64,000 nucleotides of DNA, from the IMG/VR virus record IMGVR_UViG_3300025137_000025, positions 14,587-78,586 of that record. One strand, given 5' to 3'. The notes beneath the pieces were generated by a model. That model was not told where the DNA came from. It did no database searches and saw nothing but the letters and a program-made list of their open reading frames with translations. Source of the stretch: a virus. Position numbers and translations under genes: made by a program. This document shows, in pieces, positions 11,779-34,715 of the stretch (the first letter of the stretch is position 1; the number at the start of each line of letters is the position of its first letter).

Positions 11779-12091
11779 TTGTATAAAATATTTGCAGGTT
11801 AATGTTTTTCTGAGGTATTAGTATCTGAGACAGTTTGTAGCCATCTTTTGTTTTTCTAATAGCACCCTTGTCTTTTAACTTCTTTACGTAGTTATTTAGC
11901 GTATTGTAATCTTTAATAGCTAAACTGTCTGCTACAACTCTTTTGTTTTCTGTAGAGCACAGGTTTACTGTGTCTGACAGGTCTATAAACTTAGATAGCA
12001 CTAATAGCTCCTTGTCTGTAAGCTCTAGTATGCCGTTAAATACCTGTAGATACTTGAGTGTAGAATTTACTTCTATCTTAAGTGTTTTCAT
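11771..12091 (-). CDS. winged-helix DNA-binding protein
   Basis: 'LTDKELLVL...VADSL....TLNNYVKKLKDKGAI...Y.L' wHTH pattern. Confidence 0.55.
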   Translation of the reverse strand: MKTLKIEVNSTLKYLQVFNGILELTDKELLVLSKFIDLSDTVNLCSTENKRVVADSLAIKDYNTLNNYVKKLKDKGAIRKTKDGYKLSQILIPQKNINLQIFYTNE

Positions 12092-12323
12092 TGATTTGCA
12101 CTTTGGCTTTCCCGTCTACAATGCGTATTGTAGCCTGAGAAGACTGATTGTTAAACTCATCCACGTATATCTGGATATTTTCCCGTGTACACAGAAAGGA
12201 CAAAAAAACCTCGATCTCCTTAGCGGCTCGTTTTAGTTTTTTTTGCATATCCTGTGAGTCTTTGCTTGAGCTTCGTAGCTCATCAAAGTCTTTTAGCGGG
12301 AGAGTGACTGTCCCGTTCATCAA
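12078..12323 (-). CDS. hypothetical protein
   Basis: 81-aa ORF tightly packed in the operon. Confidence 0.6.
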   Translation of the reverse strand: MMNGTVTLPLKDFDELRSSSKDSQDMQKKLKRAAKEIEVFLSFLCTRENIQIYVDEFNNQSSQATIRIVDGKAKVQINENT

Positions 12324-12611
12324 TTACGCGTTCTTTGGGATAACGCCTACAATCTGAAATTCATTAACACATGCATACTCTTTCTTGTCGAGATTTATGA
12401 TAAGAGCTCCTGACTCTGGATGCACAAGAACTGTGTCTCCTTGTTTAACCATCACACAGTCTGGACCTGCTTCCAGGATCTCTACAATGTTAGTGCTTAT
12501 GTTTTTTTGCGCATCGCCTAACAAGTGAATACCGGAGTCGGTTGTTTCTTGTCTAGGACTTCTAAATACTACCCAGTCTCGAGTAGGATTAAAATTCAAT
12601 TTGGTTCCCAT
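12324..12611 (-). CDS. groES: GroES-like co-chaperonin
   Basis: 95 aa; 'F.PTRDWVV...TTDSGIHL...EILEAGPD...VKQGDTVL...E.QIVG' Cpn10 pattern. Confidence 0.8.
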   Translation of the reverse strand: MGTKLNFNPTRDWVVFRSPRQETTDSGIHLLGDAQKNISTNIVEILEAGPDCVMVKQGDTVLVHPESGALIINLDKKEYACVNEFQIVGVIPKNA

Positions 12612-12628
12612 AATAGTTTGCTTTGCAG

Positions 12629-12636
12629 CAAATATA
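12629..12636 (-). promoter_or_regulatory. Bacteroidota-type -7 promoter box (groES operon)
   Basis: TATATTTG upstream of ATG 12611. Confidence 0.6.
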
Positions 12637-12644
12637 AAGGAAAC

Positions 12645-13115
12645 TTATATAGTGTCAAAGTCTATATAAGAAATTTCTACTTTTTCCCCCTTTTCAAGCA
12701 CCTCTGCTACTTCTGCGTACACTCTTCTGTATGCTGTAGTAGAACTTCCTACAAACCCGTCGGATTTTATGTTTTCTGTTTGTGTGTTACCCAAGAGTAG
12801 ACACCCACTAGTATCATCATCATCATTACCGCAATGGATAAGAATATACTCAAACCCAGGTATATCACGAACCCACAACATCCCTTTATGAATATCAGCA
12901 AACCTTTCAGAGTATTTAGAATTAAAACCCCCAACAGTTCTAAGCGTAATTTCATATGTCCCAGCAGGGATACGCGTTTCGTGCATGACTTTCGTATCTC
13001 TGTATTCATCCTCTAATGTGTAGCATAAAAATTCTCTTTTTTTGTCTGTAACATTAAATAACAGACCAAGAGTACTGTCTTTCTGCGAGCTAAACCTTAC
13101 AACCTCTAGCTGCAT
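12645..13115 (-). CDS. DUF5675-family putative endolysin (L,D-peptidase-like)
   Basis: 'TLE...RIPAGTY...ILIHCGN...DTSGCLLLG' His/Cys motif; start may be 13148 or 13115. Confidence 0.7.
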   Translation of the reverse strand: MQLEVVRFSSQKDSTLGLLFNVTDKKREFLCYTLEDEYRDTKVMHETRIPAGTYEITLRTVGGFNSKYSERFADIHKGMLWVRDIPGFEYILIHCGNDDDDTSGCLLLGNTQTENIKSDGFVGSSTTAYRRVYAEVAEVLEKGEKVEISYIDFDTI

Positions 13116-13156
13116 AGTTTTACGGTTAATTGGGTACCTTAAATTCATAGTAGTCA

Positions 13157-13164
13157 CAAATATA
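13157..13164 (-). promoter_or_regulatory. Bacteroidota-type -7 promoter box (endolysin)
   Basis: TATATTTG in the short divergent gap. Confidence 0.55.
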
Positions 13165-13180
13165 GTTATATATTAGCTGT

Positions 13181-14419
13181 GTGAAAAAATTATTTCTTCT
13201 CGTATTGCTCGCCCAAGTCATACTTGTGGGATACGCTAATATAGCTATAAAAACCATTGTATTCCCTGGGTGCACTGACCCCTTTGCACTTAATTACAAT
13301 GAGGATGCTACTGAAGATGATGGCACCTGCGTCTATTCTATAGGCCCAGATCCAGTCATACTTAATATAACTGTTACGGATGAAAGCTGCCAAGAGTACG
13401 AGACAGGAGTCCTGTCTTCTTACGTATACGAGGCTACTATAGTAAACATAGGAAATGAAGCAGTTACAAACTTTTGCCTTAGCGACTTTTTAGGTACTAC
13501 GTTTAATTGTTTTAACGGGGTTTCTAATCTTGCTGTTTGGATTCAACCGGGGGATACTATAATTGTAACGGGCAACATTAATAGTATCGGCACATGGGCA
13601 GCAGGGCAAGGAAACTACATGAGCGTAACGAGTGTTCCTGGTGAGATTATTACAGGTAATAATAACTTTGTTTTTTACATGCCTGAGGGAGTGGATTGCA
13701 TAGAGCCTCCTGATCCCGAGTATTGCGATACTTTACTGGTTTACGTGACTGAGATAGATACGCTTATTGAGTATGTAGAACTTCCTGCTGATACAGTGAC
13801 TGTGCTGCAGTTAGACACGTTGTACATCCCTTGGGAGTATTACTTCTACGATACCGTCTATGTAGATGTCTTTGATACTATTTACATTAACATTTTAGAC
13901 ACAGTTATTGTTACAGAGATTGATATTGAGTACGTTTATGTAACAGACACATTAGAAGTCTTTACAACAGACACATTGTATATCACGCAAGTAGATACTC
14001 TAATGCAAGAAGTCGTTGTGTACGAATACATCTACAACACAGATACCATCTATGATGTAGTATATAATGAGATATTAGTAGACTGCAGTACTGGTCTCCC
14101 TTGTATGGGTGGGTTTGTTGGGGAAGACTGCCGATCCGTATTTGTCCCTAACGCGTTTTCTCCTAACAATGATGGTATTAATGACACCTTCTATGCAGTA
14201 TCTCAATCTTACACATGTTGGAGAGACTGGAATTTAGTTGTTTATAACCGTTGGGGAAATATAATATGGAGTACTACTGACCCCGAAGTGCAGTGGGAAG
14301 GAGAAACTGAAGCCGGTACTCATTATGCCGCAGATGGGATGTACGTATGGACTTTGATTGCAAGAGGGTATTCCGGAGATGTTTTAGACCTCAGTGGGAA
14401 CGTTACACTCTTTCGTTAA
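13181..14419 (+). CDS. secreted protein with type-B T9SS C-terminal domain (gliding-motility-associated/CHU_C-like), GCTD repeat, Ig/CARDB-like domain and DT-repeat stalk
   Basis: N-terminal signal peptide; C-terminal 'FVPNAFSPNNDGINDTF...VYNRWGN...W.G...G.YVW...G.VTLFR'; 11 D-T-[LIV] motifs in the stalk. Confidence 0.85.
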   Translation: MKKLFLLVLLAQVILVGYANIAIKTIVFPGCTDPFALNYNEDATEDDGTCVYSIGPDPVILNITVTDESCQEYETGVLSSYVYEATIVNIGNEAVTNFCLSDFLGTTFNCFNGVSNLAVWIQPGDTIIVTGNINSIGTWAAGQGNYMSVTSVPGEIITGNNNFVFYMPEGVDCIEPPDPEYCDTLLVYVTEIDTLIEYVELPADTVTVLQLDTLYIPWEYYFYDTVYVDVFDTIYINILDTVIVTEIDIEYVYVTDTLEVFTTDTLYITQVDTLMQEVVVYEYIYNTDTIYDVVYNEILVDCSTGLPCMGGFVGEDCRSVFVPNAFSPNNDGINDTFYAVSQSYTCWRDWNLVVYNRWGNIIWSTTDPEVQWEGETEAGTHYAADGMYVWTLIARGYSGDVLDLSGNVTLFR

Positions 14420-14787
14420 AAGTCGCTTAGTATAATTTCGTCGATTGCATCTTGCACATCTGTTTCTGTGGCTTCCATTGTCATCATAATGTTAGCCTGA
14501 AATCGTGTTATTTCTTCTCCCTCGTTAAATACTACGATAGTGGGAACAACTACAATTTTGTGTCTTTGCTGCATATCCGGAGAAGATGCAATATCTACTC
14601 TCCCAGTTTCACAATCATTTAATTGTTCTATCCAAGGAACAGCGTTCTGCTGATTGAAGTTGGCGTTGAATTCTACTACGCACACTCCAGACGTGCAGAT
14701 TTTAGCTTCTTCTACAGGCGGCGTACTTACGTAAACAGCTGTTGAAAATAAAAGCAGGGATAATATAACAGAGATTAAGGTTTTCAT
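14416..14787 (-). CDS. exported thioredoxin-fold protein lacking CxxC
   Basis: Signal/TM N-terminus; 'VVEFNANFNQQN' where Trx has 'VDF.A.WC..C'; 'I..VPTIVVFNEGEEI.R' cis-Pro region retained. Confidence 0.7.
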   Translation of the reverse strand: MKTLISVILSLLLFSTAVYVSTPPVEEAKICTSGVCVVEFNANFNQQNAVPWIEQLNDCETGRVDIASSPDMQQRHKIVVVPTIVVFNEGEEITRFQANIMMTMEATETDVQDAIDEIILSDF

Positions 14788-14794
14788 TTCTCAT

Positions 14795-15079
14795 TTATTT
14801 AAGTTGATCTATTTTCTCCTCAATCCGTTTGATGTCTTCTTTTATTTCTGTGACATCTTCTTGTGTAGTCATAATAGTTTGACGAACTAATTTGTCTTTC
14901 ATGTCAAACTCCATGCGTGTGATTTCAGGAGCTAGTGGCTCTGGGAGTTTTTTTGCTTCTTCTATATCTGCTTGCAGTACAAACCACATGCTTATGAGCG
15001 CCCCCAAACCCGTAACCGCTAACCCAATTGTTTTAAGATCTAAAGTAATCTTTGTGCTCTCATTAATATGCTGTGCCAT
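14795..15079 (-). CDS. single-TM coiled-coil membrane protein
   Basis: Start MAQHIN at 15079 (TAATG overlap with barrel stop); hydrophobic 'IGLAVTGLGALISMWFVL'; C-terminal heptads 'VTEIKEDIKRIEEKIDQL'. Confidence 0.7.
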   Translation of the reverse strand: MAQHINESTKITLDLKTIGLAVTGLGALISMWFVLQADIEEAKKLPEPLAPEITRMEFDMKDKLVRQTIMTTQEDVTEIKEDIKRIEEKIDQLK

Positions 15080-16122
15080 TATAGTAATATGTAGTTTAAA
15101 CCGATAGAGAAGTCGTGCCACTCTCTGTTCCAGTATCTATTGTACCTGCCCTCTGCAAATACTCCTAAGCTTTTGGTTACTTTAGAACCAAAGACTATTC
15201 CAGCACCAGTGTCTATCCACTGGCCCCCGTTTACAAAGTTATGGTACGAAAATTTGTTTCCGTTGTTTAAGTGATAGGGCATAATGTTGCCCCAAGAGTG
15301 TATCCAAAAATCTTTTGTGTAATGATAAAAATCAAACCCAATTACAGCGGAATGCATCCATATACTTTGAAGCTCCGCACGTCTGTCTGCTACGTAGGTA
15401 TCTAGCACTTCTGGTATTACTACTTGTTCCCAGATTGCAGGATCGTTTGCTACGAGGCCCCCGTTTTGATCAAAAAATTCTCCTGTATTAACATCTATAC
15501 TGTACCCTTCTTGTATTGCGAGGGCGGTATAATGTAGTTGGTTATTTGGGAGAACCCACTGCTGCAAAGGGTCGTACCCGTAAGGTTCTGATATTCTTTG
15601 TACGATGCCGAGGTTTAAGGAAAACTTCTTCCCAATCTTAAGTCGTGCTCGTTGTGACGACTCAAAGTATTTTACGTCAGCAAACCCATCTTGTAGATAC
15701 TCTGCTTTTACTAACCACCAATTGTCTACGTATCTAACAAAGTAGTCTTGGTCTAAAAAGTTCCGCCCCTGCTGCCTCCTCCAGTCCGCTTCCGCCAGGA
15801 ACTCGAACCCGTCATATTTTCCAACGGTAGCAGCGTCACCATAAGTTTTTTCTGTTCCGTTGTAAAATACGTTGGCTCTGTTTTCATACCCAAACCTAGC
15901 AATCTTTCTAACTCCCAGAGTAAATGAATAGTCAAACGGAGTTTTAATTACACTTGTTTGTAGCGCTCCTGTAGCAACAGAGTATACTTCTTGATCGGAA
16001 ACGGAGTTTCCGCCGTTTACTGCAGCGTAGAAAGTAGCACGTCTAAGAACCTTCTTGTAGAAGTCACTTTGTCCCCAGCTAATTGTGGGGGCCAATAATA
16101 ATAGTGCTATAATGTATCTCAT
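15079..16122 (-). CDS. outer-membrane beta-barrel protein
   Basis: Signal peptide 'MRYIIALLLLAPTISWG-Q'; alternating aromatic amphipathic strands; C-terminal beta-signal-like 'HDFSIGLNYILL'. Confidence 0.75.
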   Translation of the reverse strand: MRYIIALLLLAPTISWGQSDFYKKVLRRATFYAAVNGGNSVSDQEVYSVATGALQTSVIKTPFDYSFTLGVRKIARFGYENRANVFYNGTEKTYGDAATVGKYDGFEFLAEADWRRQQGRNFLDQDYFVRYVDNWWLVKAEYLQDGFADVKYFESSQRARLKIGKKFSLNLGIVQRISEPYGYDPLQQWVLPNNQLHYTALAIQEGYSIDVNTGEFFDQNGGLVANDPAIWEQVVIPEVLDTYVADRRAELQSIWMHSAVIGFDFYHYTKDFWIHSWGNIMPYHLNNGNKFSYHNFVNGGQWIDTGAGIVFGSKVTKSLGVFAEGRYNRYWNREWHDFSIGLNYILL

Positions 16123-18242
16123 TCTCGTACAATTGTTTGTTTAACAACTCGACCGTTGTATTCCACTACTACGATATACACTCCTGCGGTAGGGAGTTCT
16201 ATTTGTGAATTAATTGTTGTTATTAGTTCTTGCCCTATAGAGTTATAAATAGTGCTTACACTACTCGGGGGAGCTTGAATATTTATGGTTCTATTTGTTG
16301 GGTTTGGGTATATGCTTATTCTTTCAAAGAGCTCGGGGATGTTTGTTACCCCGTCTCCACAGTACTCATACATTTCTACACACACGTTGTCCCAATTAGT
16401 TTCACAGCAGTAGGGGTCAATACTAATAACCCATGAGTAGCACTGGTCGTTTCCCCAGTACGGATCGCCTGGCTCTCCTATACATCCTGCATCATATAAA
16501 CACTGCTCATTATCTGCAGTATTAGCATCTGCATTAAAGTTGTAAGCGTCTGTGTCCATGCACCCCTCTAGCACATCAATACAACCGCCCCCATCAGCGT
16601 TTGCTTCTTCGTCGTAGTTAATTGCATCTGGATTAGTACATCCGTAAATGAAGGCTACGCAACTTCCGTTGTCTGTGTTTGCTTCCGCGTTGTAGTTAAA
16701 CTGTGTGGGATCGGTACAACCAAAGACAATCTGTTCGCAGTCCCCACTATCAGTAGCAATAGGGTTGTAATTAAATGCTGTAGCATCCATGCATCCAACT
16801 ATTTCTAACTCATCGCAAACTCCATCGTTGTCCAAATCTGTAACACACTGATTATCACAGGTATAGAACTCTATGGGAAGTGTGCAGTCTGATTCTACAT
16901 TTGCATCAGGATTGTAGTCACATGCAATTGGGTTTGTGCACCCAACTACAGCGTCAATGCAGAAGTCTTGACAATAAGGAACACCTTCGTATTTAAATGG
17001 GAACTTATTTATTGGGTCAGTCCAAGGGTTACTTCCAGCTTCCATAAATATTCCAGTAGGACTGGTGAAGAAGAATCCGCATTGGGCGGCGGTAGTTTCA
17101 GCGTTACCTCCTGTAAAGAACATTACTTCTATAGGTTCTCCTGAGTACAGTGGGATAAGGAACTGCTCTTCTGTCCCATCATTAGGACCCATTTGGAATG
17201 GGCCAAATATCTCATCCCCTTGCACAACACCTAACCAGCTCCCAAACCATCCGTCACCTGCTCCGTCTGTTATTGTAAGGAGTGTCATACATAATGACTG
17301 TGTTTCTAGTGTGTTAGCGTCGGGGTTAAAATTAACTGCGGTAGAGTCTATGCAGCCCAGGATCACCTCGGTTAGGCAAGACTCGTCATCTATATCTGCA
17401 AGTGGGTTGTACTCAGTAAAGTTAGGGTCTGTGCATCCCTCTAGTACATCAGTTGTGCATGCATCTACAGCAATAGGCTCGCTGGAGATAGTGGAGTATT
17501 GCAAAGTATCTCCTATATAGTATAGCGTATCTCCACATAAAGTAGTTATTGAGATATTACCATCAACCCCACCATAGCAGCTCCCGCACATCCCATCACC
17601 AAAAGTGTCTAACACTTCTAAGACAAGAGTGTCCCCAACAGCAACGCACACATCATGTATTACTGGGATTCCTACAGAAGTATACCCACTGCCCGATAGT
17701 ATCTCTACTTCATTAGACTGCAGTCCCCAACTAATCTCGCCTGCGTATGTGTCTGGGGTTACTGTTACAATAATGGTGGTCTCTCCATTGTCACAAGGTT
17801 GGGGCGGATAAACACAAGGTTGAGAAGCATTAGCCCAAGGATTGTAGTCTACTGCTATTGGGTCAGTACATCCAAAGATGGGTGGGGGACAAGGAAGTAC
17901 CTCAAATGGGAGTATTAGTTCTGGGCTATTGAAGTCGTATACTGCTGTATCTAATTGGCAGGAATTACTAAGGGCAAACCACCCTTCCCCAAACCCACAG
18001 CAGATCCCGTCCCCAAAGCTGTCGTATATGATAAACTCGTAGTTACCTGGGGAGAGAAAGACAAGCTGCTCGTTGTATGAGTTACTTGCGTAAGTGCTTG
18101 ACTCTTCTATAACTTCCTCGTCCTGTACGATTACCCAGCTAGTCTCGAGTGCGTACTGGTCTGTTTGAAGTTCCACAATTACCCAGCTCTGTCCCAGCAC
18201 TATGCTTGGGAGGAGCAATAACAGTGCTAGCAGCGATCTCAT
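16119..18242 (-). CDS. secreted Cys/Asp-rich protein with 8 GC[TMI][DN] repeats and type-A T9SS C-terminal sorting domain
   Basis: Signal peptide ending in Gln; three 'D..GDG' beta-sandwich modules; 'GCTDP...YN..A..D..C' repeats; C-terminal 'ISIYPNPT...IYNSIGQ...GVYIV...TIVRE'. Confidence 0.88.
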   Translation of the reverse strand: MRSLLALLLLLPSIVLGQSWVIVELQTDQYALETSWVIVQDEEVIEESSTYASNSYNEQLVFLSPGNYEFIIYDSFGDGICCGFGEGWFALSNSCQLDTAVYDFNSPELILPFEVLPCPPPIFGCTDPIAVDYNPWANASQPCVYPPQPCDNGETTIIVTVTPDTYAGEISWGLQSNEVEILSGSGYTSVGIPVIHDVCVAVGDTLVLEVLDTFGDGMCGSCYGGVDGNISITTLCGDTLYYIGDTLQYSTISSEPIAVDACTTDVLEGCTDPNFTEYNPLADIDDESCLTEVILGCIDSTAVNFNPDANTLETQSLCMTLLTITDGAGDGWFGSWLGVVQGDEIFGPFQMGPNDGTEEQFLIPLYSGEPIEVMFFTGGNAETTAAQCGFFFTSPTGIFMEAGSNPWTDPINKFPFKYEGVPYCQDFCIDAVVGCTNPIACDYNPDANVESDCTLPIEFYTCDNQCVTDLDNDGVCDELEIVGCMDATAFNYNPIATDSGDCEQIVFGCTDPTQFNYNAEANTDNGSCVAFIYGCTNPDAINYDEEANADGGGCIDVLEGCMDTDAYNFNADANTADNEQCLYDAGCIGEPGDPYWGNDQCYSWVISIDPYCCETNWDNVCVEMYEYCGDGVTNIPELFERISIYPNPTNRTINIQAPPSSVSTIYNSIGQELITTINSQIELPTAGVYIVVVEYNGRVVKQTIVRE

Positions 18243-18670
18243 TTTTTTGTTTTTTCAATCGTCCTTCCTGCAAAGTATGCACCGAACGCGGTTAGCATTA
18301 GTATTTGCAATAAGTCGATGTAACTGTCCTTGACGTTGAATGGTAAGCTGTCCATGCTGTCGAACACCATAGTTAGGCAGAACATTACCATTAATGTGAT
18401 GAGGGTAACTGGTCGTATTAGTTTGGCGAGTTTAATATCGCTCCCCATATCAGCCTTCCACCGTTCCGTTACGTTCTCTTGGAATCGCACCTCTGCGTCT
18501 ATCTTTGCCTGCGCCTCGGCAGGGTCGATATCAGGCTCTTTATCTAGGAGGTTTTTTACAAGTCCCAGTGCTCCTTGGTCGGGTAATAGGTCACCCACGG
18601 TACCAAGAATGCTAGGAGCCTTTTCCTTTAACCAAGCACCTAACTTGGTGTCCTTAATCTTCTTGCTCAT
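18239..18670 (-). CDS. holin (3TM/GTA-type)
   Basis: 'VTERWKADM.SD..L.K.IRP' followed by two TM helices and 'AYFAGRTIEK'; start MSKK at 18670. Confidence 0.75.
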   Translation of the reverse strand: MSKKIKDTKLGAWLKEKAPSILGTVGDLLPDQGALGLVKNLLDKEPDIDPAEAQAKIDAEVRFQENVTERWKADMGSDIKLAKLIRPVTLITLMVMFCLTMVFDSMDSLPFNVKDSYIDLLQILMLTAFGAYFAGRTIEKTKK

Positions 18671-18744
18671 ACGACTAGTTAGTTTGTCGTAAAAGTAATC
18701 AATTAAAACCAAACATAATTATCCCCCTTAGGTTTTTATTAAAC

Positions 18745-18955
18745 GACACACTTCCACTCGGCGTATTGAGCCTGACGTCTGGGGGAGTTACTTATTACCG
18801 TGTTCCCAGACCCGAGTTTTATAGTGTCACAATTTGCACAGCTATTGGGGACAACTTCACCGCTATGTTTACCTGTTATCTCAAGGCTGCAGTTATTAAC
18901 CCAACTTCTGACCCCCTACTTCTATCCCTCAGGGGTGATCTAGATTATTCTAGGC
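18745..18955. ncRNA. candidate structured non-coding RNA
   Basis: Nested stems GACAC/GTGTC, ACTCGG/CCGAGT, GTCTGGG/CCCAGAC plus further hairpins in an intergenic region with no credible ORF. Confidence 0.4.
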
Positions 18956-18957
18956 TG

Positions 18958-19095
18958 TTAACTTCCGCAGTTCTCACATGCTTCTGGTGAATCCACGTTG
19001 CATGTAATCTCTCCGGTTTCTATTTTCTTTTCGAGTGCTTCCGTTTTACTCTTATCTAAGAAATCTACGTTGAAGTCGTCCTTTTCGTTTTCCAT
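18958..19095 (-). CDS. 45-aa acidic peptide ending C-x7-C-x2-C-G-S (RNR-alpha tail-like)
   Basis: Hand translation MENEKDDFNVDFLDKSKTEALEKKIETGEITCNVDSPEACENCGS; own TATCTTTA box at 19115-19122. Confidence 0.7.
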   Translation of the reverse strand: MENEKDDFNVDFLDKSKTEALEKKIETGEITCNVDSPEACENCGS

Positions 19096-19134
19096 TGCTA
19101 CTTAATTGGGACGGTAAAGATACGTCATAGTTCT

Positions 19135-19266
19135 TCACCTCCCTTGACCTCGGTACGCTTTTTTGTAATTCTTTGAGTCCTTATGGGCTGACGTCTTAGT
19201 CTTAGCATGAACTCCAGGCCTAGAGACTGTACTCTCTTCTTTTTGGTGTGATTGGATTTTTGCCAT
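19135..19266 (-). CDS. 43-aa basic peptide ending YKKAYRGQGR
   Basis: Hand translation MAKIQSHQKEESTVSRPGVHAKTKTSAHKDSKNYKKAYRGQGR; TAGCTTTG box 5 nt upstream. Confidence 0.75.
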   Translation of the reverse strand: MAKIQSHQKEESTVSRPGVHAKTKTSAHKDSKNYKKAYRGQGR

Positions 19267-19270
19267 GCCC

Positions 19271-19278
19271 CAAAGCTA
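19271..19278 (-). promoter_or_regulatory. Bacteroidota-type -7 promoter box at the head of the minus-strand block
   Basis: TAGCTTTG upstream of ATG 19266. Confidence 0.55.
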
Positions 19279-19396
19279 TACAAAATTCTGGGTAAAAAAA
19301 TTTTATCTGGGAGTTTTTTGAGTGCGTTAACCTACACAATCAATGACCCCCACTATGCATCGTCACCGGGGTATCCCCCCACAAAACTATATTACC

Positions 19397-19570
19397 ATGT
19401 TTAAATTAGCGAATTACCGACTTAGTAAGGAAGGCACATACTTGTGGCATCCAACTGTATTTGGTGTTGACTCGAATGACAGCGTCATCGAAGACTCACC
19501 GCAACCTATCGAAATTGCAGGCAACGAAGCTCTGCATAAGCGTTGGTTGGAACTAACGAAGGAAGCGTAA
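19397..19570 (+). CDS. small early hypothetical protein
   Basis: MFKLANY... 57 aa, followed by hairpins and a terminator. Confidence 0.55.
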   Translation: MFKLANYRLSKEGTYLWHPTVFGVDSNDSVIEDSPQPIEIAGNEALHKRWLELTKEA

Positions 19571-19608
19571 GCTTCTTTCTATTGTGTTGCTCAGTAACAA
19601 TTTACTGA

Positions 19609-24533: not shown

Positions 24534-24607
24534 GCGCTTATAGCTCAGTCGGTTAGAGCATCCGACTCATAATCGGCAGGTCCTAGGTTCAAGTCCTAGT
24601 AGGCGCA
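24534..24607 (+). tRNA. tRNA with CAT anticodon (probably Ile2/lysidine type, possibly Met)
   Basis: Full cloverleaf: GCGCTTA/TAGGCGC acceptor, TAGCTCAG..GG..AGAGC D-arm, CTCATAA loop, GGTTCAAGTCC T-arm; no encoded CCA. Confidence 0.9.
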
Positions 24608-24669
24608 CTTATCTCGTCATTTATGACTGTCAAAGCGGCAACAGGTCACCGACACCTGTGGGGTATTAA

Positions 24670-24743
24670 GCTCTCTTAGCTCAGCTGGTTAGAGCATCTC
24701 ACTTTTAATGAGAGGGTCCTGGGTTCGAGTCCCAGAGGGGGTA
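24670..24743 (+). tRNA. tRNA-Lys(TTT)
   Basis: Cloverleaf with TCTCA-CTTTTAA-TGAGA anticodon arm and GGTTCGAGTCC T-arm. Confidence 0.9.
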
Positions 24744-24879
24744 CGACTATTATCTAACATCAATCACCTATACAAGATGTTAGAGTTTATGTAAGATAGG
24801 TTGCCCGACACCTTGTGGGTACAACGAATCAAGGTAGGGGAGATAAGTAGGTGCAAGATGCTTACTCTCCCCGATTTCT

Positions 24880-24953
<74 letters not shown>

Positions 24954-24981
24954 CAATCAAAATTTAAACACAAACAATTTA

Positions 24982-31627: not shown

Positions 31628-31999
31628 ATGGAAGAATTTAAATTAAGGTCAGGGGTAGAACCCCCCGATCCTGGAGACTTAATTGGTGTAGCTTATGGTG
31701 GAGCTGGGATGATCACTCCTTCTGTATTTATAAGGGTTAAACAAGGCAATGGCCATTATATTGTTAACCATTTTATACTAGGGGGTTATTGGTCTCGCAG
31801 AAAGTTACCGCCTTCTCCTACACTAGAGTGGGTACACAAAAACTGTGACTATATCTACGGAAGTTGTATATCAGATAGGATTATTTATGCAGACCCTAGG
31901 TGTTTGTCTAAAGAACAGAAAGAAGAGTATCATGTAATTAAATCACTTGTAAAAAATGAGTATAAAAACTATTGGGCAACAGACTCAATCAAACACTAG
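31628..31999 (+). CDS. hypothetical protein
   Basis: 123-aa ORF with an A-rich leader. Confidence 0.55.
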   Translation: MEEFKLRSGVEPPDPGDLIGVAYGGAGMITPSVFIRVKQGNGHYIVNHFILGGYWSRRKLPPSPTLEWVHKNCDYIYGSCISDRIIYADPRCLSKEQKEEYHVIKSLVKNEYKNYWATDSIKH

Positions 32000-34715
32000 T
32001 GGACTAAAAAAGATTATCAATAAAGGCGCTCAACGTCTTGTAATTGATGTCTTACAGTCTACTCAGTATTCTACCCCAATCCCTTCAACAATACGTGAGC
32101 TGGTAACAAATGCCTGCGATTCACAACGCGAGAAGGAGATTGCGATAGAAATACTAACAGGTAAGGCAAAGATGGAGGATTACTTCATCACCAGACAGGG
32201 AGAAGAGTATACAGATTCAAATTTTGATTCGTCGTACTATTCTTTGGAGAATCTTAACACGGCTCAGAACAATGTAAAAGTTAAGTATCATGAAAATGAT
32301 GCAGGTACAGGGTTCTGTGACACAGTTGAGATCATTGACTATGGCGTAGGCATTGGTAATAGAAGACTTGAAGGTATGTTGGAGCTAGGTTATTCTACAA
32401 AGCGCAACACATCTGAGAACTTCGGTGCCTTTGGTTTAGGTAGCAAAATTGCATTGTCTACAGGTGTATCGCACTACACCATTGAGACTGTGCATAATAA
32501 CAAGAAGTTCAAGATGCACTGCTATCCGTACAAAACTGACTTTGTAATAACAAAGTGGGATTGTGATGGACACGTGGTTCTTAGCAATGGAGAACATGCT
32601 TATTATAAGAAAACTACTTCTACTAACTACACTAAAATCTCGTTTGGGAGTAAGAAACACAATCGCTCAGCTTACAGAAATGCAATCAAGGAGCAGCTTT
32701 CTTACATATCTAACGTGGATTACTATACTTTATGTCTCGACGGAGACGGTAAGAGTCGTGAGTACAAAGAGGATATAAACAAGGAAGTGCTTGTAAATAC
32801 ACCCTCTTGTATTGTAGCTGCTGGAAGTAGGTGGTATTCAAAGCCGCACATCGTTATTGTCAAGAATCCTGGTGATTCTGTAGGTATTAACTATGGCAGC
32901 ATTGATTTCCGTGAACTTGAGATGGAAGATCTCGCAGGAAACATAGGCATAAAGTGTCCTATGCGGCAATCGTATATAAATGATGATGGACAAGAAGTAG
33001 TATTACAAGAAGGTGTAGACGTTACTCCTTCTCGTGAGAAAGTTATATGGAATGAATCGACAAAGGAATATGTGCAGAAGATGTTGGAGCAAGCTGCGGA
33101 TGAAGCAGCGGAAGTCATACAAGAAGCACTAAAAGAAGATGATTTTATACAATGGATTAAGCTGTGTACTAACATACTATACAAGAACCCATCTGCAGAA
33201 GGGCTAGGTGACGACCTAGTTGGGCTTAATCAGATAGCTCGTATGGTTGATACCTCGAAGATTAGACCTATGTTTAAGTCTTCTGGAATTAGATTTACTA
33301 ATCCCAAGAAGATGTTTGCAGGGTACAGTGTTCGACAGATTCGACGTGTTAGTAATGGCATTGAACGGACTGAATTGAGCGACTGGACTTCGACAGATAT
33401 GTCTAGGGTCTATGTTGCAGATGAAGGCGGTGCAATCAAAATAAATGATTTGTATCTGACTCTTGGAGACTCTCGTAGTTTTATTCTTATTTCACCTAAA
33501 GGCACTGATTATCTTTCAGACGATATCGCACGCGAGACTCGTCCTGAGATAAAGCAAAAACTTCAGGCAGAGAAGAATAAGTACGAGAAGAACAAGCAGA
33601 TCATAACATCTCTTTTGAATACGCAAACCTCATCTGTGCATAGTTACTCTGATATAGAGGTGCCGGAAGATGTCTTAAGTACAATTCAAGCTATAGAAGC
33701 TAAGGATATCTCTCAAGAGCTTACACCTGCAGAACTTCGTAAACTCCAACAGAAGACTGTAGGCTATACTCTAAGAAGGCAGATGAATGATGAACAGTGG
33801 GTATGGGACAAGATAGAACCAACAATTGAAACAGTTGTAAATTCTAAAATTGAAACATATTATGGAACATCAGAAGACGGTCCTAAGATAAAGCTAGCTG
33901 CTGAGATGTTACGTAGACGAGTTTCTACCTGGGGAAGAGTCAGTGTTAGGCTTTCAAGTTCTCAGTGGGACACCAGTCCTATATTATTTAGAGAAGCTAT
34001 TCCTGCGGCTGTCAATAAGTACAATGCGACATTAAAAGAAGGCTTTTCTAGTGTGCTGGATAAATATGAGAGTGAAGCTCCGCAGCTTATTAGATTATCA
34101 GAGAGCAACTGTAAATACGCACGTAAGAATACAAACTGGAAGCACATTGATGACTTCTTCTTTACAATGACTGAAGAAGGAGCTATTACTGCAAGTAGAT
34201 ATCTTAAACCTGTCCTCACTTGTATATCTCTACGAGATAGAAAACAATCGTGGGAATGGTTAGGGAGTGCTACGGCTAAAAATTTGTTGCCTCCTGCGCA
34301 TAAACTTTATAAAACTGTATATAGGTATATGGATATTTGTTTCCCTATCAATCTATCTAACAGCGATTTAGGGGCAGATGATTTTATCAAATATCTTGTA
34401 AACTTTATAAAGTATCAAGACATTTGTGATACTGATGATCTATCTTTAAGGCAGGAAAAGTCCCGTGAATTCTTTGTTGTAGATGTCCCAAGCATCGATG
34501 CGTACGACAAAGAGATTGCAGAACTTGGAAATACTTTAGATGATTTGTCAGAGCATATCGGTAGCTGGATGCTTCACTCTCGTGAGACAGTCTACAATAA
34601 TGCACAGCATGAGTCTATATACAATGTAGTGTTCAACCACTACAATAAATTTGATATCGAAATCCCGGAAATCGAGGTACCGGGCTTGAGATTTAACCTT
34701 ACTCCTCGAAGTTAA
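31956..34715 (+). CDS. rIIA: RIIA-like protein (GHKL ATPase N-terminus)
   Basis: 'IRELVTNACDS', 'DYGVG', 'YSTK', 'GAFGLGSK', 'VTPSRE'. Confidence 0.85.
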   Translation: MSIKTIGQQTQSNTSGLKKIINKGAQRLVIDVLQSTQYSTPIPSTIRELVTNACDSQREKEIAIEILTGKAKMEDYFITRQGEEYTDSNFDSSYYSLENLNTAQNNVKVKYHENDAGTGFCDTVEIIDYGVGIGNRRLEGMLELGYSTKRNTSENFGAFGLGSKIALSTGVSHYTIETVHNNKKFKMHCYPYKTDFVITKWDCDGHVVLSNGEHAYYKKTTSTNYTKISFGSKKHNRSAYRNAIKEQLSYISNVDYYTLCLDGDGKSREYKEDINKEVLVNTPSCIVAAGSRWYSKPHIVIVKNPGDSVGINYGSIDFRELEMEDLAGNIGIKCPMRQSYINDDGQEVVLQEGVDVTPSREKVIWNESTKEYVQKMLEQAADEAAEVIQEALKEDDFIQWIKLCTNILYKNPSAEGLGDDLVGLNQIARMVDTSKIRPMFKSSGIRFTNPKKMFAGYSVRQIRRVSNGIERTELSDWTSTDMSRVYVADEGGAIKINDLYLTLGDSRSFILISPKGTDYLSDDIARETRPEIKQKLQAEKNKYEKNKQIITSLLNTQTSSVHSYSDIEVPEDVLSTIQAIEAKDISQELTPAELRKLQQKTVGYTLRRQMNDEQWVWDKIEPTIETVVNSKIETYYGTSEDGPKIKLAAEMLRRRVSTWGRVSVRLSSSQWDTSPILFREAIPAAVNKYNATLKEGFSSVLDKYESEAPQLIRLSESNCKYARKNTNWKHIDDFFFTMTEEGAITASRYLKPVLTCISLRDRKQSWEWLGSATAKNLLPPAHKLYKTVYRYMDICFPINLSNSDLGADDFIKYLVNFIKYQDICDTDDLSLRQEKSREFFVVDVPSIDAYDKEIAELGNTLDDLSEHIGSWMLHSRETVYNNAQHESIYNVVFNHYNKFDIEIPEIEVPGLRFNLTPRS

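What the first reader, a model, noticed from the sequence alone, without database searches (positions are those of the whole stretch)
13181..18670. Phage-encoded type IX secretion cargo cassette: a lytic crAss-like phage that may decorate the host surface
Seen: five genes that all encode envelope-targeted proteins. They are a signal-peptide protein with a type-A T9SS CTD (IYPNP...GVYIV), an OM beta-barrel, a TM/coiled-coil protein, an exported Trx-fold protein, and a second signal-peptide protein with a type-B CTD (VPNAFSPNNDGIND...NRWG). Both substrates share GCTD-type Cys/Asp repeats. Holin, substrate A, barrel and TM protein are joined by ATGA/ATGA/TAATG overlaps, so this is an integrated phage operon. 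Established: these CTDs route proteins through the Bacteroidota T9SS to the surface, and T9SS/gliding components include surface adhesins. Inference: the phage uses the host T9SS to display its own proteins, for superinfection exclusion (jamming or masking a receptor), altered adhesion/gliding of infected cells, or shielding from grazers. I know of no characterised phage system like this.
Basis: partly seen in the sequence, partly recalled or inferred. Interest (0 to 1): 0.92.

Follow-up and report, generated by a model that had tools for sequence, protein, structure and literature searches.

The report
Phage lysis-linked envelope module, T9SS cargo
An uncultured marine crAss-like phage of Bacteroidota carries, between its holin and a probable cell-wall enzyme, two proteins tagged for the host's type IX secretion system plus a phage-only trio (outer-membrane barrel, inner-membrane helix protein, inactive periplasmic thioredoxin); the set recurs beside lysis genes in over 160 ocean phage contigs, so it may be an undescribed way of dealing with the host outer membrane at lysis.

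Summary
All five genes are at the stated coordinates. Both secretion tags pass curated HMM cut-offs, and the type-A tag also matches solved T9SS cargo tags in a predicted structure. The ATGA/ATGA/TAATG overlaps are real. Contigs from independent seawater metagenomes bridge every gene junction, so the region is not a chimera.

The interpretation (surface display for exclusion, adhesion or shielding) is only partly supported. Export through the host T9SS is well supported. The context, however, points to lysis:
- The barrel, TM-helix protein and Trx-like protein form a phage-only trio.
- A signal-peptide, Cys-rich partner always accompanies the trio. It is T9A-like upstream in one subfamily and T9B-like downstream in a second.
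- I found the set in 162 IMG/VR loci with several gene arrangements.
- A holin or endolysin lies within three genes of the trio in 62 of 100 fully flanked loci, and the endolysins come from five or six different families.
- In this window the slot is holin - T9A - barrel - TMcc - Trx - (T9B) - DUF5675, a probable endolysin with a conserved His/Cys motif.

My best reading, at moderate confidence, is an envelope module of the lysis cassette that stands in for spanins, with T9SS delivering its surface component. The function is untested. Phage T9SS cargo has been reported before (PMC7468147, PMC6949934). This scan has already found the same module in at least 17 other genomes.

The parts
18239..18712 (-). 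Holin. Its stop codon overlaps the T9A start (ATGA).
   Evidence: phrog_3427 holin, E 7e-22. Hydrophobic segment at about residues 98-120. Overlap read.
16119..18242 (-). T9A. It has a signal peptide, three beta-sandwich domains, Cys-rich C.D..A.NYN repeats and a type-A T9SS C-terminal domain (residues about 640-707).
   Evidence: TIGR04183 at 29.2 bits and 35.1 bits. AF2 model pLDDT 75. The CTD matches RgpB, RemA, NucA and FspA CTDs at Z 7.7-9.2. All 71 distinct homologues keep the signal peptide and CTD, while the body is only 35-68% identical.
15079..16122 (-). Phage-only 12-stranded outer-membrane beta-barrel with a signal peptide. It has a very conserved 31-residue segment (about 74-104) and a 75-residue insert (about 179-253).
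   Evidence: AF2 model. Tsx Z 15.6 and other 12-stranded barrels. No Pfam, NCBIfam or PHROG family. More than 3,500 homologues, all unnamed. All nearest Atlas clusters are viral. Only mis-binned MAG contigs turned up among 185,579 species genomes.
14795..15079 (-). TMcc, 94 aa. It has an N-terminal transmembrane helix (about residues 17-35) and a 59-residue, highly conserved helical periplasmic tail. Its start overlaps the barrel stop (TAATG).
   Evidence: Sequence and alignment A2, 82% mean column identity. Hydropathy. Only weak PHROG hits. Overlap read.
14416..14787 (-). Exported thioredoxin-fold protein without the CXXC redox site (F-N-x-x-N instead). It has a single invariant Cys and an invariant C-terminal Phe.
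   Evidence: Profile against the PDB hits thioredoxins at E 4e-7. Alignment A3. Weak PF00085 and TIGR01068 hits.
13181..14419 (+). T9B. It has a signal peptide, one Cys/Asp repeat, a D-T-x-Y beta-prone repeat region and a type-B T9SS CTD. It lies on the opposite strand, inside the late operon.
   Evidence: PF13585 at 56.2 bits and TIGR04131 at 35.3 bits. It is homologous (E 8e-11) to the secreted partner of the barrel in the second subfamily. It is present in about 11 near relatives. Metagenome contigs break or vary at 13307-13677.
12645..13157 (-). DUF5675 protein, a probable endolysin with no signal peptide. It occupies the slot that Amidase_2 or other endolysins occupy in relatives.
   Evidence: PF18925 E 2e-26 and a weak Tlde1 hit. 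phrog_1501. Invariant IHCGN...SGCLLLG motif in 32 homologues. Positional equivalence with Amidase_2, PG_binding_1 plus Amidase_2, and Peptidase_M15_3.

Best explanation
The region from 12645 to 18712 is the phage's lysis cassette, and the five envelope proteins are a conserved, phage-only envelope module built into it.

Proposed course of events, inferred unless marked as shown:
1. Late in infection the operon makes three proteins: an outer-membrane barrel, an inner-membrane-anchored helical protein that reaches into the periplasm, and a redox-dead periplasmic thioredoxin.
2. At the same time, Cys-rich lectin-like proteins (T9A, T9B) are exported by Sec and then passed to the cell surface by the host type IX secretion system through their C-terminal tags.
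3. I propose that these parts assemble into an envelope-spanning set. Once the holin fires and the endolysin (DUF5675) cuts the wall, the set helps breach or detach the outer membrane. That is the job Rz/Rz1-type spanins do in other phages. No such spanins were found here.

Shown here: the domains, the secretion tags, the gene coupling, the conservation of the module and its linkage to lysis genes.

Inferred: physical assembly of the parts, any role in outer-membrane disruption, and actual export by T9SS.
For: - The genes are translationally coupled to the holin and to each other, on the strand of the late structural genes.
- The order T9A-barrel-TMcc-Trx is almost invariant in 82 loci spanning several different genome contexts.
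- A second barrel subfamily adds 80 more loci (of 96 relatives found) with the order barrel - T9B-like - TMcc - Trx - Peptidase_M15_3 endolysin - holin.
- A holin or endolysin lies within three genes of the trio in 62 of 100 loci that have at least three genes on both sides: 41 of 41 in subfamily 2 and 21 of 59 in subfamily 1.
- The adjacent endolysins belong to different families: Amidase_2, PG_binding_1 plus Amidase_2, Peptidase_M15_3, DUF5675 and a YkuD-like cluster. Non-orthologous replacement around a fixed module is typical of lysis cassettes.
- TMcc has the i-spanin layout: an N-terminal TM helix and a helical periplasmic domain.
- The barrel is an outer-membrane protein.
- No Rz-family gene (PF03245) was found in the 95%-complete genome.
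- 91 of 677 phages of Gram-negative hosts have no identifiable spanin, so other routes are expected (PMC6139136).
- The barrel family is found only in viral sequence.
Against: - No experiment exists for any member.
- In about 36 fully flanked loci, mostly the TerL-portal group of subfamily 1, no recognised lysis gene lies within four genes of the trio.
- A spanin-like job does not obviously need a T9SS-exported, fast-evolving lectin-like protein. That variability fits an interaction with variable surface structures, as in exclusion or receptor masking.
- The TMcc periplasmic tail is only 59 residues, shorter than typical i-spanins.
- The outer-membrane partner is a barrel, not a lipoprotein.
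- Linkage to lysis genes may partly reflect that crAss-like late operons mix structural and lysis genes (PMC10136315).
Confidence: 0.4

Rival explanations
1. Surface display. The phage uses the host T9SS to coat the infected cell with its own lectin-like proteins. These would mask or jam receptors, giving superinfection exclusion or protecting progeny from adsorbing to debris, or they would alter adhesion. The barrel, TMcc and Trx would act as helpers (anchor, folding).
For: - The type-A and type-B CTDs are genuine.
- The T9A body evolves fast (35-68% identity) while the barrel stays at 54-98%.
- Metagenome contigs break or vary inside T9A and T9B. Bellas et al. described the same pattern for variable phage T9SS cargo and suggested superinfection or competition roles (PMC7468147).
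- The beta-sandwich domains weakly resemble Ca-dependent carbohydrate-binding modules (2xhh_A, Z 6.3).
- No enzyme domain was found in T9A or T9B.
Against: - Exclusion genes are usually expressed early or from their own units. Here T9A is coupled to the holin in the late operon.
- This reading does not explain why the trio is so strongly conserved, or why it sits between holins and endolysins of many families.
- In subfamily 2 the secreted partner has no HMM-detectable CTD.
Confidence: 0.25
2. A self-contained T9SS cargo kit. The barrel would be a phage version of a PorP/SprF- or PorV-like outer-membrane carrier or anchor for the tagged proteins. The Trx-fold protein would be a periplasmic holdase for the 39-Cys cargo. 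TMcc would tether the kit. The payload function would be unknown.
For: - In host genomes, type-B CTD proteins are commonly paired with an adjacent PorP/SprF-family barrel (my own knowledge of F. johnsoniae SprB/SprF, not checked in a paper here).
- Every barrel found has a signal-peptide, Cys-rich partner next to it: T9A in 81 of 84 loci, and T9B-like in 76 of 77.
- The barrel is close in size to such outer-membrane carriers.
Against: - PF11751 (PorP_SprF) does not hit the barrel or anything else in the genome. That control search rang nowhere, so this result is weak.
- The model is a 12-stranded barrel nearest to Tsx and autotransporter translocators. PorV (6h3i_F) reaches only Z 8.6.
- Type-A cargo is normally handled by the host PorV.
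- This reading does not explain the linkage to lysis genes.
Confidence: 0.15
3. A lysis-timing device. The surface protein and envelope trio would sense an outside signal, such as superinfecting phage or host surface state, and pass it to the holin, like T4 lysis inhibition through RI.
For: - Coupling to the holin.
- An envelope-spanning set of parts.
- A variable surface component.
- An rIIA-like gene elsewhere in the window.
Against: - None of the parts resembles RI/RIII or known antiholins.
- In many loci the holin is several genes away or not in the locus.
- This reading is purely speculative.
Confidence: 0.08
4. An assembly chimera or captured host DNA with no function in the phage.
For: CTD-tagged proteins are otherwise typical of Bacteroidota chromosomes.
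Against: - The same gene order occurs in many viral contigs.
- The stretch occurs in 19 studies of marine metagenomes, and contigs of runs X2 and X4 bridge all gene junctions.
- GC content is uniform across the region.
- Start and stop codons overlap with phage genes.
- The barrel family is absent from cellular genomes.
Confidence: 0.01

Closest known systems
Two-component spanins (lambda Rz/Rz1, T4 PseT.3/PseT.2; Kongari et al. 2018, PMC6139136)
   Same: They are encoded in the lysis cassette beside the holin and endolysin. One subunit is a type-II inner-membrane protein with a helical periplasmic domain, as TMcc is. The other subunit sits in the outer membrane. The genes are adjacent or overlapping.
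   Different: Here the outer-membrane part is a 347-aa, 12-stranded beta-barrel, not a small lipoprotein. There are two extra conserved parts, a dead thioredoxin and a secreted Cys-rich protein. There is no sequence similarity to spanins. The TMcc tail is short. No function has been shown.
Phage-encoded T9SS type-A cargo of 'Cryophage' (Bellas et al. 2020, PMC7468147), and T9SS sorting-domain proteins upstream of the head genes in gut crAss-like cluster 2 (de Jonge et al. 2019, PMC6949934)
   Same: These are phage genes carrying T9SS C-terminal sorting domains. They are variable between phage variants and presumed to hijack the host secretion system. In crAss-like phages they lie just upstream of the head module, as here.
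   Different: Those cargos include enzymes (endoglucanase, GH39) or BACON repeats. No linked barrel/TM-helix/thioredoxin trio or lysis-cassette context was described for them. The cargo here is non-enzymatic and includes a type-B CTD protein.
Host T9SS cargo with cognate outer-membrane partners (type-B CTD with a PorP/SprF-like barrel; type-A CTD with PorV)
   Same: A CTD-tagged, signal-peptide protein is encoded next to an outer-membrane barrel. The CTD fold matches solved cargo CTDs bound to SprA/PorV (8gl6, 8gl8, 8glj, 8glk).
   Different: The barrel gives no PorP_SprF HMM hit, and its model has 12 strands. It is nearest to Tsx and autotransporter barrels rather than to PorV. The family is phage-only.
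Phage-encoded outer-membrane or envelope exclusion proteins (lambda Lom/Bor, T5 Llp)
   Same: The phage places its own proteins in the host envelope.
   Different: Those are single small proteins, mostly from prophages or early genes. They have no T9SS tags, no trio and no lysis-cassette placement. This comparison rests on my own knowledge and was not tested here.

Membership tests
T9SS type-A CTD cargo (TIGR04183 / PF18962) | C-terminal sorting domain of about 70-80 aa recognised by the family HMM | tested here: met
   TIGR04183 scores 29.2 bits against a cut-off of 23, and 35.1 bits as the sole hit in the genome. Pfam PF18962 scores 21.4 bits, below its cut-off of 27.
T9SS type-A CTD cargo (TIGR04183 / PF18962) | Ig-like beta-sandwich CTD fold like solved cargo CTDs | tested here: met
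   Residues 640-707 match RgpB CTD 5ag9_B (Z 9.2, rmsd 1.8 A, 65 aligned) and RemA, RemZ, NucA and FspA CTDs (Z 7.7-8.2). Foldseek 8glk_D gives TM 0.74.
T9SS type-A CTD cargo (TIGR04183 / PF18962) | N-terminal Sec signal peptide | tested here: inconclusive
   T9A has a hydrophobic N-terminus (MRSLLALLLLLPSIVLGQ), conserved in homologues. No SignalP run was possible.
T9SS type-A CTD cargo (TIGR04183 / PF18962) | Export depends on host T9SS (SprA/PorV/GldKLMN), with CTD removal by PorU | not testable with these tools
   This needs expression in wild-type and T9SS-mutant Flavobacteriia.
T9SS type-B CTD cargo (TIGR04131 / PF13585) | C-terminal type-B sorting domain recognised by the family HMM | tested here: met
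   PF13585 scores 56.2 bits against 27. TIGR04131 scores 35.3 against 35, only just above. Homologues in L020 and L002 also hit.
T9SS type-B CTD cargo (TIGR04131 / PF13585) | Adjacent cognate PorP/SprF-family outer-membrane protein | tested here: not met
   There is no PF11751 hit on the barrel or anywhere in the genome. That control search rang in no control genome, so its sensitivity is unproven. The phage barrel could be a functional stand-in.
Two-component spanin | i-spanin: N-terminal TM domain with a periplasmic, largely helical or coiled-coil domain | tested here: met
   TMcc has a TM helix at about residues 17-35 and a 59-residue helical-type tail. The tail is shorter than Rz and comparable in total length to T4 PseT.3 (117 aa, PMC6139136).
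Two-component spanin | o-spanin: small outer-membrane lipoprotein with a lipobox Cys | tested here: not met
   The outer-membrane component is a 347-aa beta-barrel with a non-lipoprotein signal sequence (...ISWG/QSD).
Two-component spanin | Genes lie in the lysis cassette with the holin and endolysin | tested here: met
   In the window the order is holin-T9A-barrel-TMcc-Trx-(T9B)-DUF5675. In 62 of 100 loci a lysis gene lies within three genes.
Two-component spanin | Sequence membership of a known spanin family | tested here: not met
   PF03245 has no hit in the genome. PHROG hits for TMcc are weak and go to families of unknown function or 'lipoprotein'.
Two-component spanin | Required for outer-membrane disruption; the subunits bind each other | not testable with these tools
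   This needs genetics and biochemistry.
Thioredoxin (PF00085) | Thioredoxin fold | tested here: met
   A profile of 29 homologues hits many solved thioredoxins, best E 4e-7. The cis-Pro motif VVVPT is conserved.
Thioredoxin (PF00085) | CXXC redox active site | tested here: not met
   The active-site position reads F-N-x-x-N. Only Cys59 is invariant. Single-sequence HMM scores are below cut-off.
Crassvirales | crAss-type TerL, portal and major head protein | tested here: met
   phrog_6681 E 3e-131, phrog_6547 E 2e-120 and phrog_11589 E 3e-86. TerL is 42% identical to ICTV-classified Crassvirales.

The most novel reading that the evidence does not exclude
Marine Bacteroidota phages would use a previously unrecognised class of outer-membrane-breaching lysis machinery in place of spanins. 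It would be an envelope-spanning complex of a phage-made outer-membrane beta-barrel, an inner-membrane helical protein and a catalytically dead thioredoxin. Its surface-exposed component would be delivered by hijacking the host type IX secretion system.
Probability: 0.3. Interest if true: 0.88.

Novelty: new variant of a known kind. Interest (0 to 1): 0.72.

Why it matters
Flavobacteriia and other Bacteroidota are major degraders of algal carbon in the ocean, and phage lysis controls how that carbon is released. How their phages get through the outer membrane is unknown.

The module here is phage-only and has no family annotation. The barrel alone has more than 3,500 homologues, and the module sits in the lysis cassette of many unrelated phage backbones. 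If it is the missing outer-membrane step, it would be a new lysis mechanism and the first functional use of a host T9SS by a virus. If it is instead a surface-display or exclusion system, it would still be the first conserved multi-protein envelope kit of that sort in lytic phages.

Either way it gives clear, testable targets: the barrel, TMcc, the dead Trx and the CTD cargo. The barrel is also a useful marker gene for phages of T9SS-bearing hosts.

Tried and rejected
- Complex prediction on the barrel (18-347), TMcc periplasmic tail (36-94) and Trx (22-123), with TMcc as partner, gave no verdict (score 0.00, controls not run). This is neither support nor evidence against binding.
- tblastn of the barrel against 50,697 GenBank phage records found no match. 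T9A matched only one Cys repeat in a marine single-cell virus. There is no cultured or deposited relative in that set.
- phmmer of T9A and DUF5675 against PDB sequences found no hits.
- The genome-contig scan for cellular homologues of the barrel returned only five small or mis-binned MAG contigs. I rejected the idea of a host-derived barrel.
- Search for PorP/SprF membership of the barrel: no HMM hit. The control genomes did not ring, so the negative is weak. I could not build a PorP/SprF profile for hhalign because no Bacteroidota genome handle was available.
- Foldseek of the full T9A model listed ferlins and other multi-C2 proteins first. TM-scores were below 0.1 and merely reflect tandem beta-sandwiches, so I did not use this.
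- The ESM Atlas gave only viral clusters, nothing informative on function.
- The sigma-70 promoter and terminator scan of 12000-19600 found no more sites than shuffles give. Bacteroidota promoters are not covered, so it says nothing on T9B's own promoter.
- No RNA holder was listed for the stretch, so there is no statement on expression.
- The first search of earlier findings failed.
- The annotated neighbourhood of TerL in gut crAss phage cr125_1 showed no comparable annotated genes.

Full report
**What is there.** The window is part of a 78.6-kb IMG/VR virus record that CheckV rates 95% complete. It is crAss-like. The portal (phrog_6547), large terminase (phrog_6681) and major head protein (phrog_11589) match strongly. 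TerL is 42% identical to classified Crassvirales, whose recorded hosts are all Bacteroidota. No integrase was found.

The finding lies at the upstream end of the long minus-strand late block. Read along the minus strand, the genes are:
- holin (18712-18239; phrog_3427, E 7e-22)
- T9A (18242-16119, 707 aa)
- barrel (16122-15079, 347 aa)
- TMcc (15079-14795, 94 aa)
- Trx-like protein (14787-14416, 123 aa)
- T9B on the opposite strand (13181-14419, 412 aa)
- a DUF5675 protein (13157-12645)

**The secretion tags are real.**
- T9A passes NCBIfam's type-A model, at 29.2 bits against a cut-off of 23. A six-frame search of the whole genome gives 35.1 bits as the only hit. It falls just below Pfam's cut-off.
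- In an AlphaFold2 model (pLDDT 75), residues 640-707 superpose on solved type-A CTDs. These include RgpB (Z 9.2, rmsd 1.8 A over 65 residues) and the RemA, RemZ, NucA and FspA CTDs seen bound in the SprA translocon.
- T9B passes both type-B models: PF13585 at 56.2 bits and TIGR04131 at 35.3 bits.
- The rest of T9A is three beta-sandwich domains plus many small Cys-rich C.D..A.NYN repeats (39 Cys), with no enzyme domain.
- T9B has one such repeat, a beta-prone D-T-x-Y repeat region and the CTD.

**The three other proteins.**
- The barrel model (pLDDT 70.5) has 12 long strands with both termini on one side. Its best structural neighbours are 12-stranded outer-membrane barrels: Tsx at Z 15.6, the EstA and NalP translocators, KdgM and NanC. 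PorV reaches only Z 8.6.
- The barrel has no Pfam, NCBIfam or PHROG family.
- TMcc has one N-terminal TM helix and a 59-residue, very conserved helical tail.
- The Trx-like protein is a true thioredoxin fold (profile E 4e-7). Its CXXC is replaced by F-N-x-x-N and only one Cys is invariant, so it is not a normal oxidoreductase.

**Not an artefact.** The same gene order is present in near-identical and diverged viral contigs. The stretch is held by runs from 19 studies of marine and seawater metagenomes. Contigs from independent runs X2 and X4 bridge every gene junction from DUF5675 to beyond the holin. Contigs tend to break or diverge inside T9B (13307-13677) and in the N-terminal part of T9A, which fits strain-level variability of the two cargo genes.

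**Comparative context changes the reading.**
- The barrel has more than 3,500 homologues in metagenome protein catalogues, none named.
- An exhaustive profile search finds a compact family of 388 cluster representatives.
- All nearest Atlas clusters are viral.
- A scan of one genome for each of 185,579 species returned only five small or mis-binned MAG contigs. The barrel is therefore phage-only.
- In 82 IMG/VR loci the order T9A-barrel-TMcc-Trx is nearly invariant across several different genome backbones.
- All 71 distinct T9A homologues keep the signal peptide and the type-A CTD, while the body diverges to 35-68% identity. The barrel, TMcc and Trx stay at 54-98%, 60-94% and 42-93%.
- A second barrel subfamily (seed P0134) brought in 80 more loci (of 96 relatives found) with the order barrel - secreted protein - TMcc - Trx.
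- In that subfamily the secreted partner is homologous to this window's T9B. It shares the D-T-x-Y repeats and a DCxTGLPC junction (E 8e-11). It ends in a short conserved tail that no CTD model detects.

The T9SS tag itself is not demonstrably universal.

**Linkage to lysis genes.** What flanks the module is the most telling part.
- In this window the module sits between the holin and DUF5675.
- In close crAss-like relatives an Amidase_2 endolysin (phrog_822, E 2.5e-51) replaces DUF5675 directly after Trx.
- In a group of 120-166-kb phages a PG_binding_1 plus Amidase_2 endolysin follows Trx.
- In subfamily 2 a Peptidase_M15_3 endolysin and then the holin follow Trx. In other subfamily-2 loci DUF5675, or a cluster with a YkuD-like SxGC motif, sits beside the module.
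- Among 100 loci with at least three genes on each side, 62 have a recognised holin or endolysin within three genes of the trio. That is 41 of 41 in subfamily 2 and 21 of 59 in subfamily 1.
- DUF5675 has no signal peptide. It has an invariant IHCGN...SGCLLLG motif and a weak Tlde1-like hit, which suits a cysteine L,D-peptidase-type endolysin.
- No Rz-type spanin gene was detected in the genome.

A fixed module surrounded by interchangeable endolysins and a holin is the signature by which lysis-cassette components, spanins included, were recognised in the past. In addition, 91 of 677 phages of Gram-negative hosts have no identifiable spanin (PMC6139136).

**Best explanation and its limits.** I read the region as the lysis cassette, with the five envelope proteins as a conserved phage envelope module. 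Most likely the module acts at the outer-membrane step of lysis. TMcc would be the inner-membrane part, the barrel the outer-membrane part, the dead thioredoxin a periplasmic adaptor or holdase, and T9A/T9B the surface components delivered by the host T9SS.

Physical assembly and function are inferred. One complex prediction gave no verdict and counts for nothing.

Points against this reading:
- The roughly 36 loci, mainly the TerL-portal group, that have no recognised lysis gene nearby.
- The short TMcc tail.
- The barrel in place of a lipoprotein.

I therefore keep surface display or exclusion as a serious rival (0.25). A cargo-plus-anchor kit (0.15) and a lysis-timing sensor (0.08) are lesser rivals.

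**Relation to what is known.** Phage-encoded T9SS cargo is not new as an observation. 'Cryophage' carries three variable type-A-tagged genes (PMC7468147). T9SS sorting-domain proteins lie upstream of the head genes in gut crAss-like cluster 2 (PMC6949934). My literature searches found no description of the barrel/TM-helix/dead-thioredoxin trio or of its lysis linkage.

The module is not a member of the spanin families. The o-spanin lipoprotein feature and sequence membership both fail. It is not a detectable PorP/SprF member either.

This scan has already met the same module in at least 17 other genomes, and earlier follow-up agents reached the same reading. I reached mine before that look-up. 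Those notes agree with it and pointed me to the spanin survey.

**Verdict.** This is a real, abundant, phage-only envelope module of unknown function, embedded in a lysis cassette and using host T9SS tags. It is worth experimental follow-up.

Noticed in passing
window 24534-24954: A cluster of three tRNA genes (Met-CAT, Lys-TTT, Arg-TCT) sits on the plus strand inside the replication-type module.
   Followed up: no
window 38470-63879 (minus strand): A run of giant ORFs of 1278, 3740, 876, 914 and 1656 aa. The two that were scanned had no PHROG hit. They probably correspond to the crAss-type tail/cargo or virion RNA polymerase block. The 3740-aa ORF is unusually long.
   Followed up: no
window 31956-34715: A 919-aa protein with a short N-terminal match to rIIA 'lysis inhibitor' families (phrog_612, E 1e-15, residues 126-190 only).
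   Followed up: no
window 12324-12611: A phage GroES-like co-chaperonin (phrog_3188, E 8e-9) lies directly downstream of DUF5675. A chaperonin is also annotated near TerL in gut crAss phage cr125_1.
   Followed up: no
window 13307-13677 and about 17600: Metagenome contigs from independent runs break or carry many substitutions inside T9B and the N-terminal part of T9A. One T9B variant contig has three times the depth of its flanks in run X2. The two cargo genes look like strain-variable islands.
   Followed up: partly
window 13157-13181: T9B is on the opposite strand inside the late operon. Only 23 bp separate its GTG start from the divergent DUF5675 start, and its 3' end overlaps the Trx 3' end by 4 nt. 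Its promoter must lie within or overlap the DUF5675 start region, and convergent transcription with the late operon is implied.
   Followed up: partly
L092-L171 (e.g. L141:7554-8234, L113:9241-10158): In barrel subfamily 2 the secreted partner ends in a conserved tail of about 45 aa (...LYNLxGQxIxxPxGIYIxNGKIKY). It looks like the last strands of a type-A CTD, but no CTD HMM detects it. It may be a truncated or novel sorting signal.
   Followed up: partly
L086-L090: Barrel-bearing phage contigs are binned into MAGs labelled Nitrosopelagicus, Parvibaculum, Rickettsiales and Maricaulis. This is almost certainly mis-binning of phage contigs. One of them is a 120-kb contig.
   Followed up: no
L031-L080 (group with TerL-portal upstream): In this group small, very basic proteins, including DUF6321 (PF19846, E 1e-24), follow the Trx gene. 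The module sits among head genes, and no lysis gene was recognised in the 17-kb loci.
   Followed up: partly
window 1-64000: GC and AT skew flip sign at about 20 kb and about 38 kb, matching the strand switches between the late minus-strand blocks and the plus-strand replication block.
   Followed up: no
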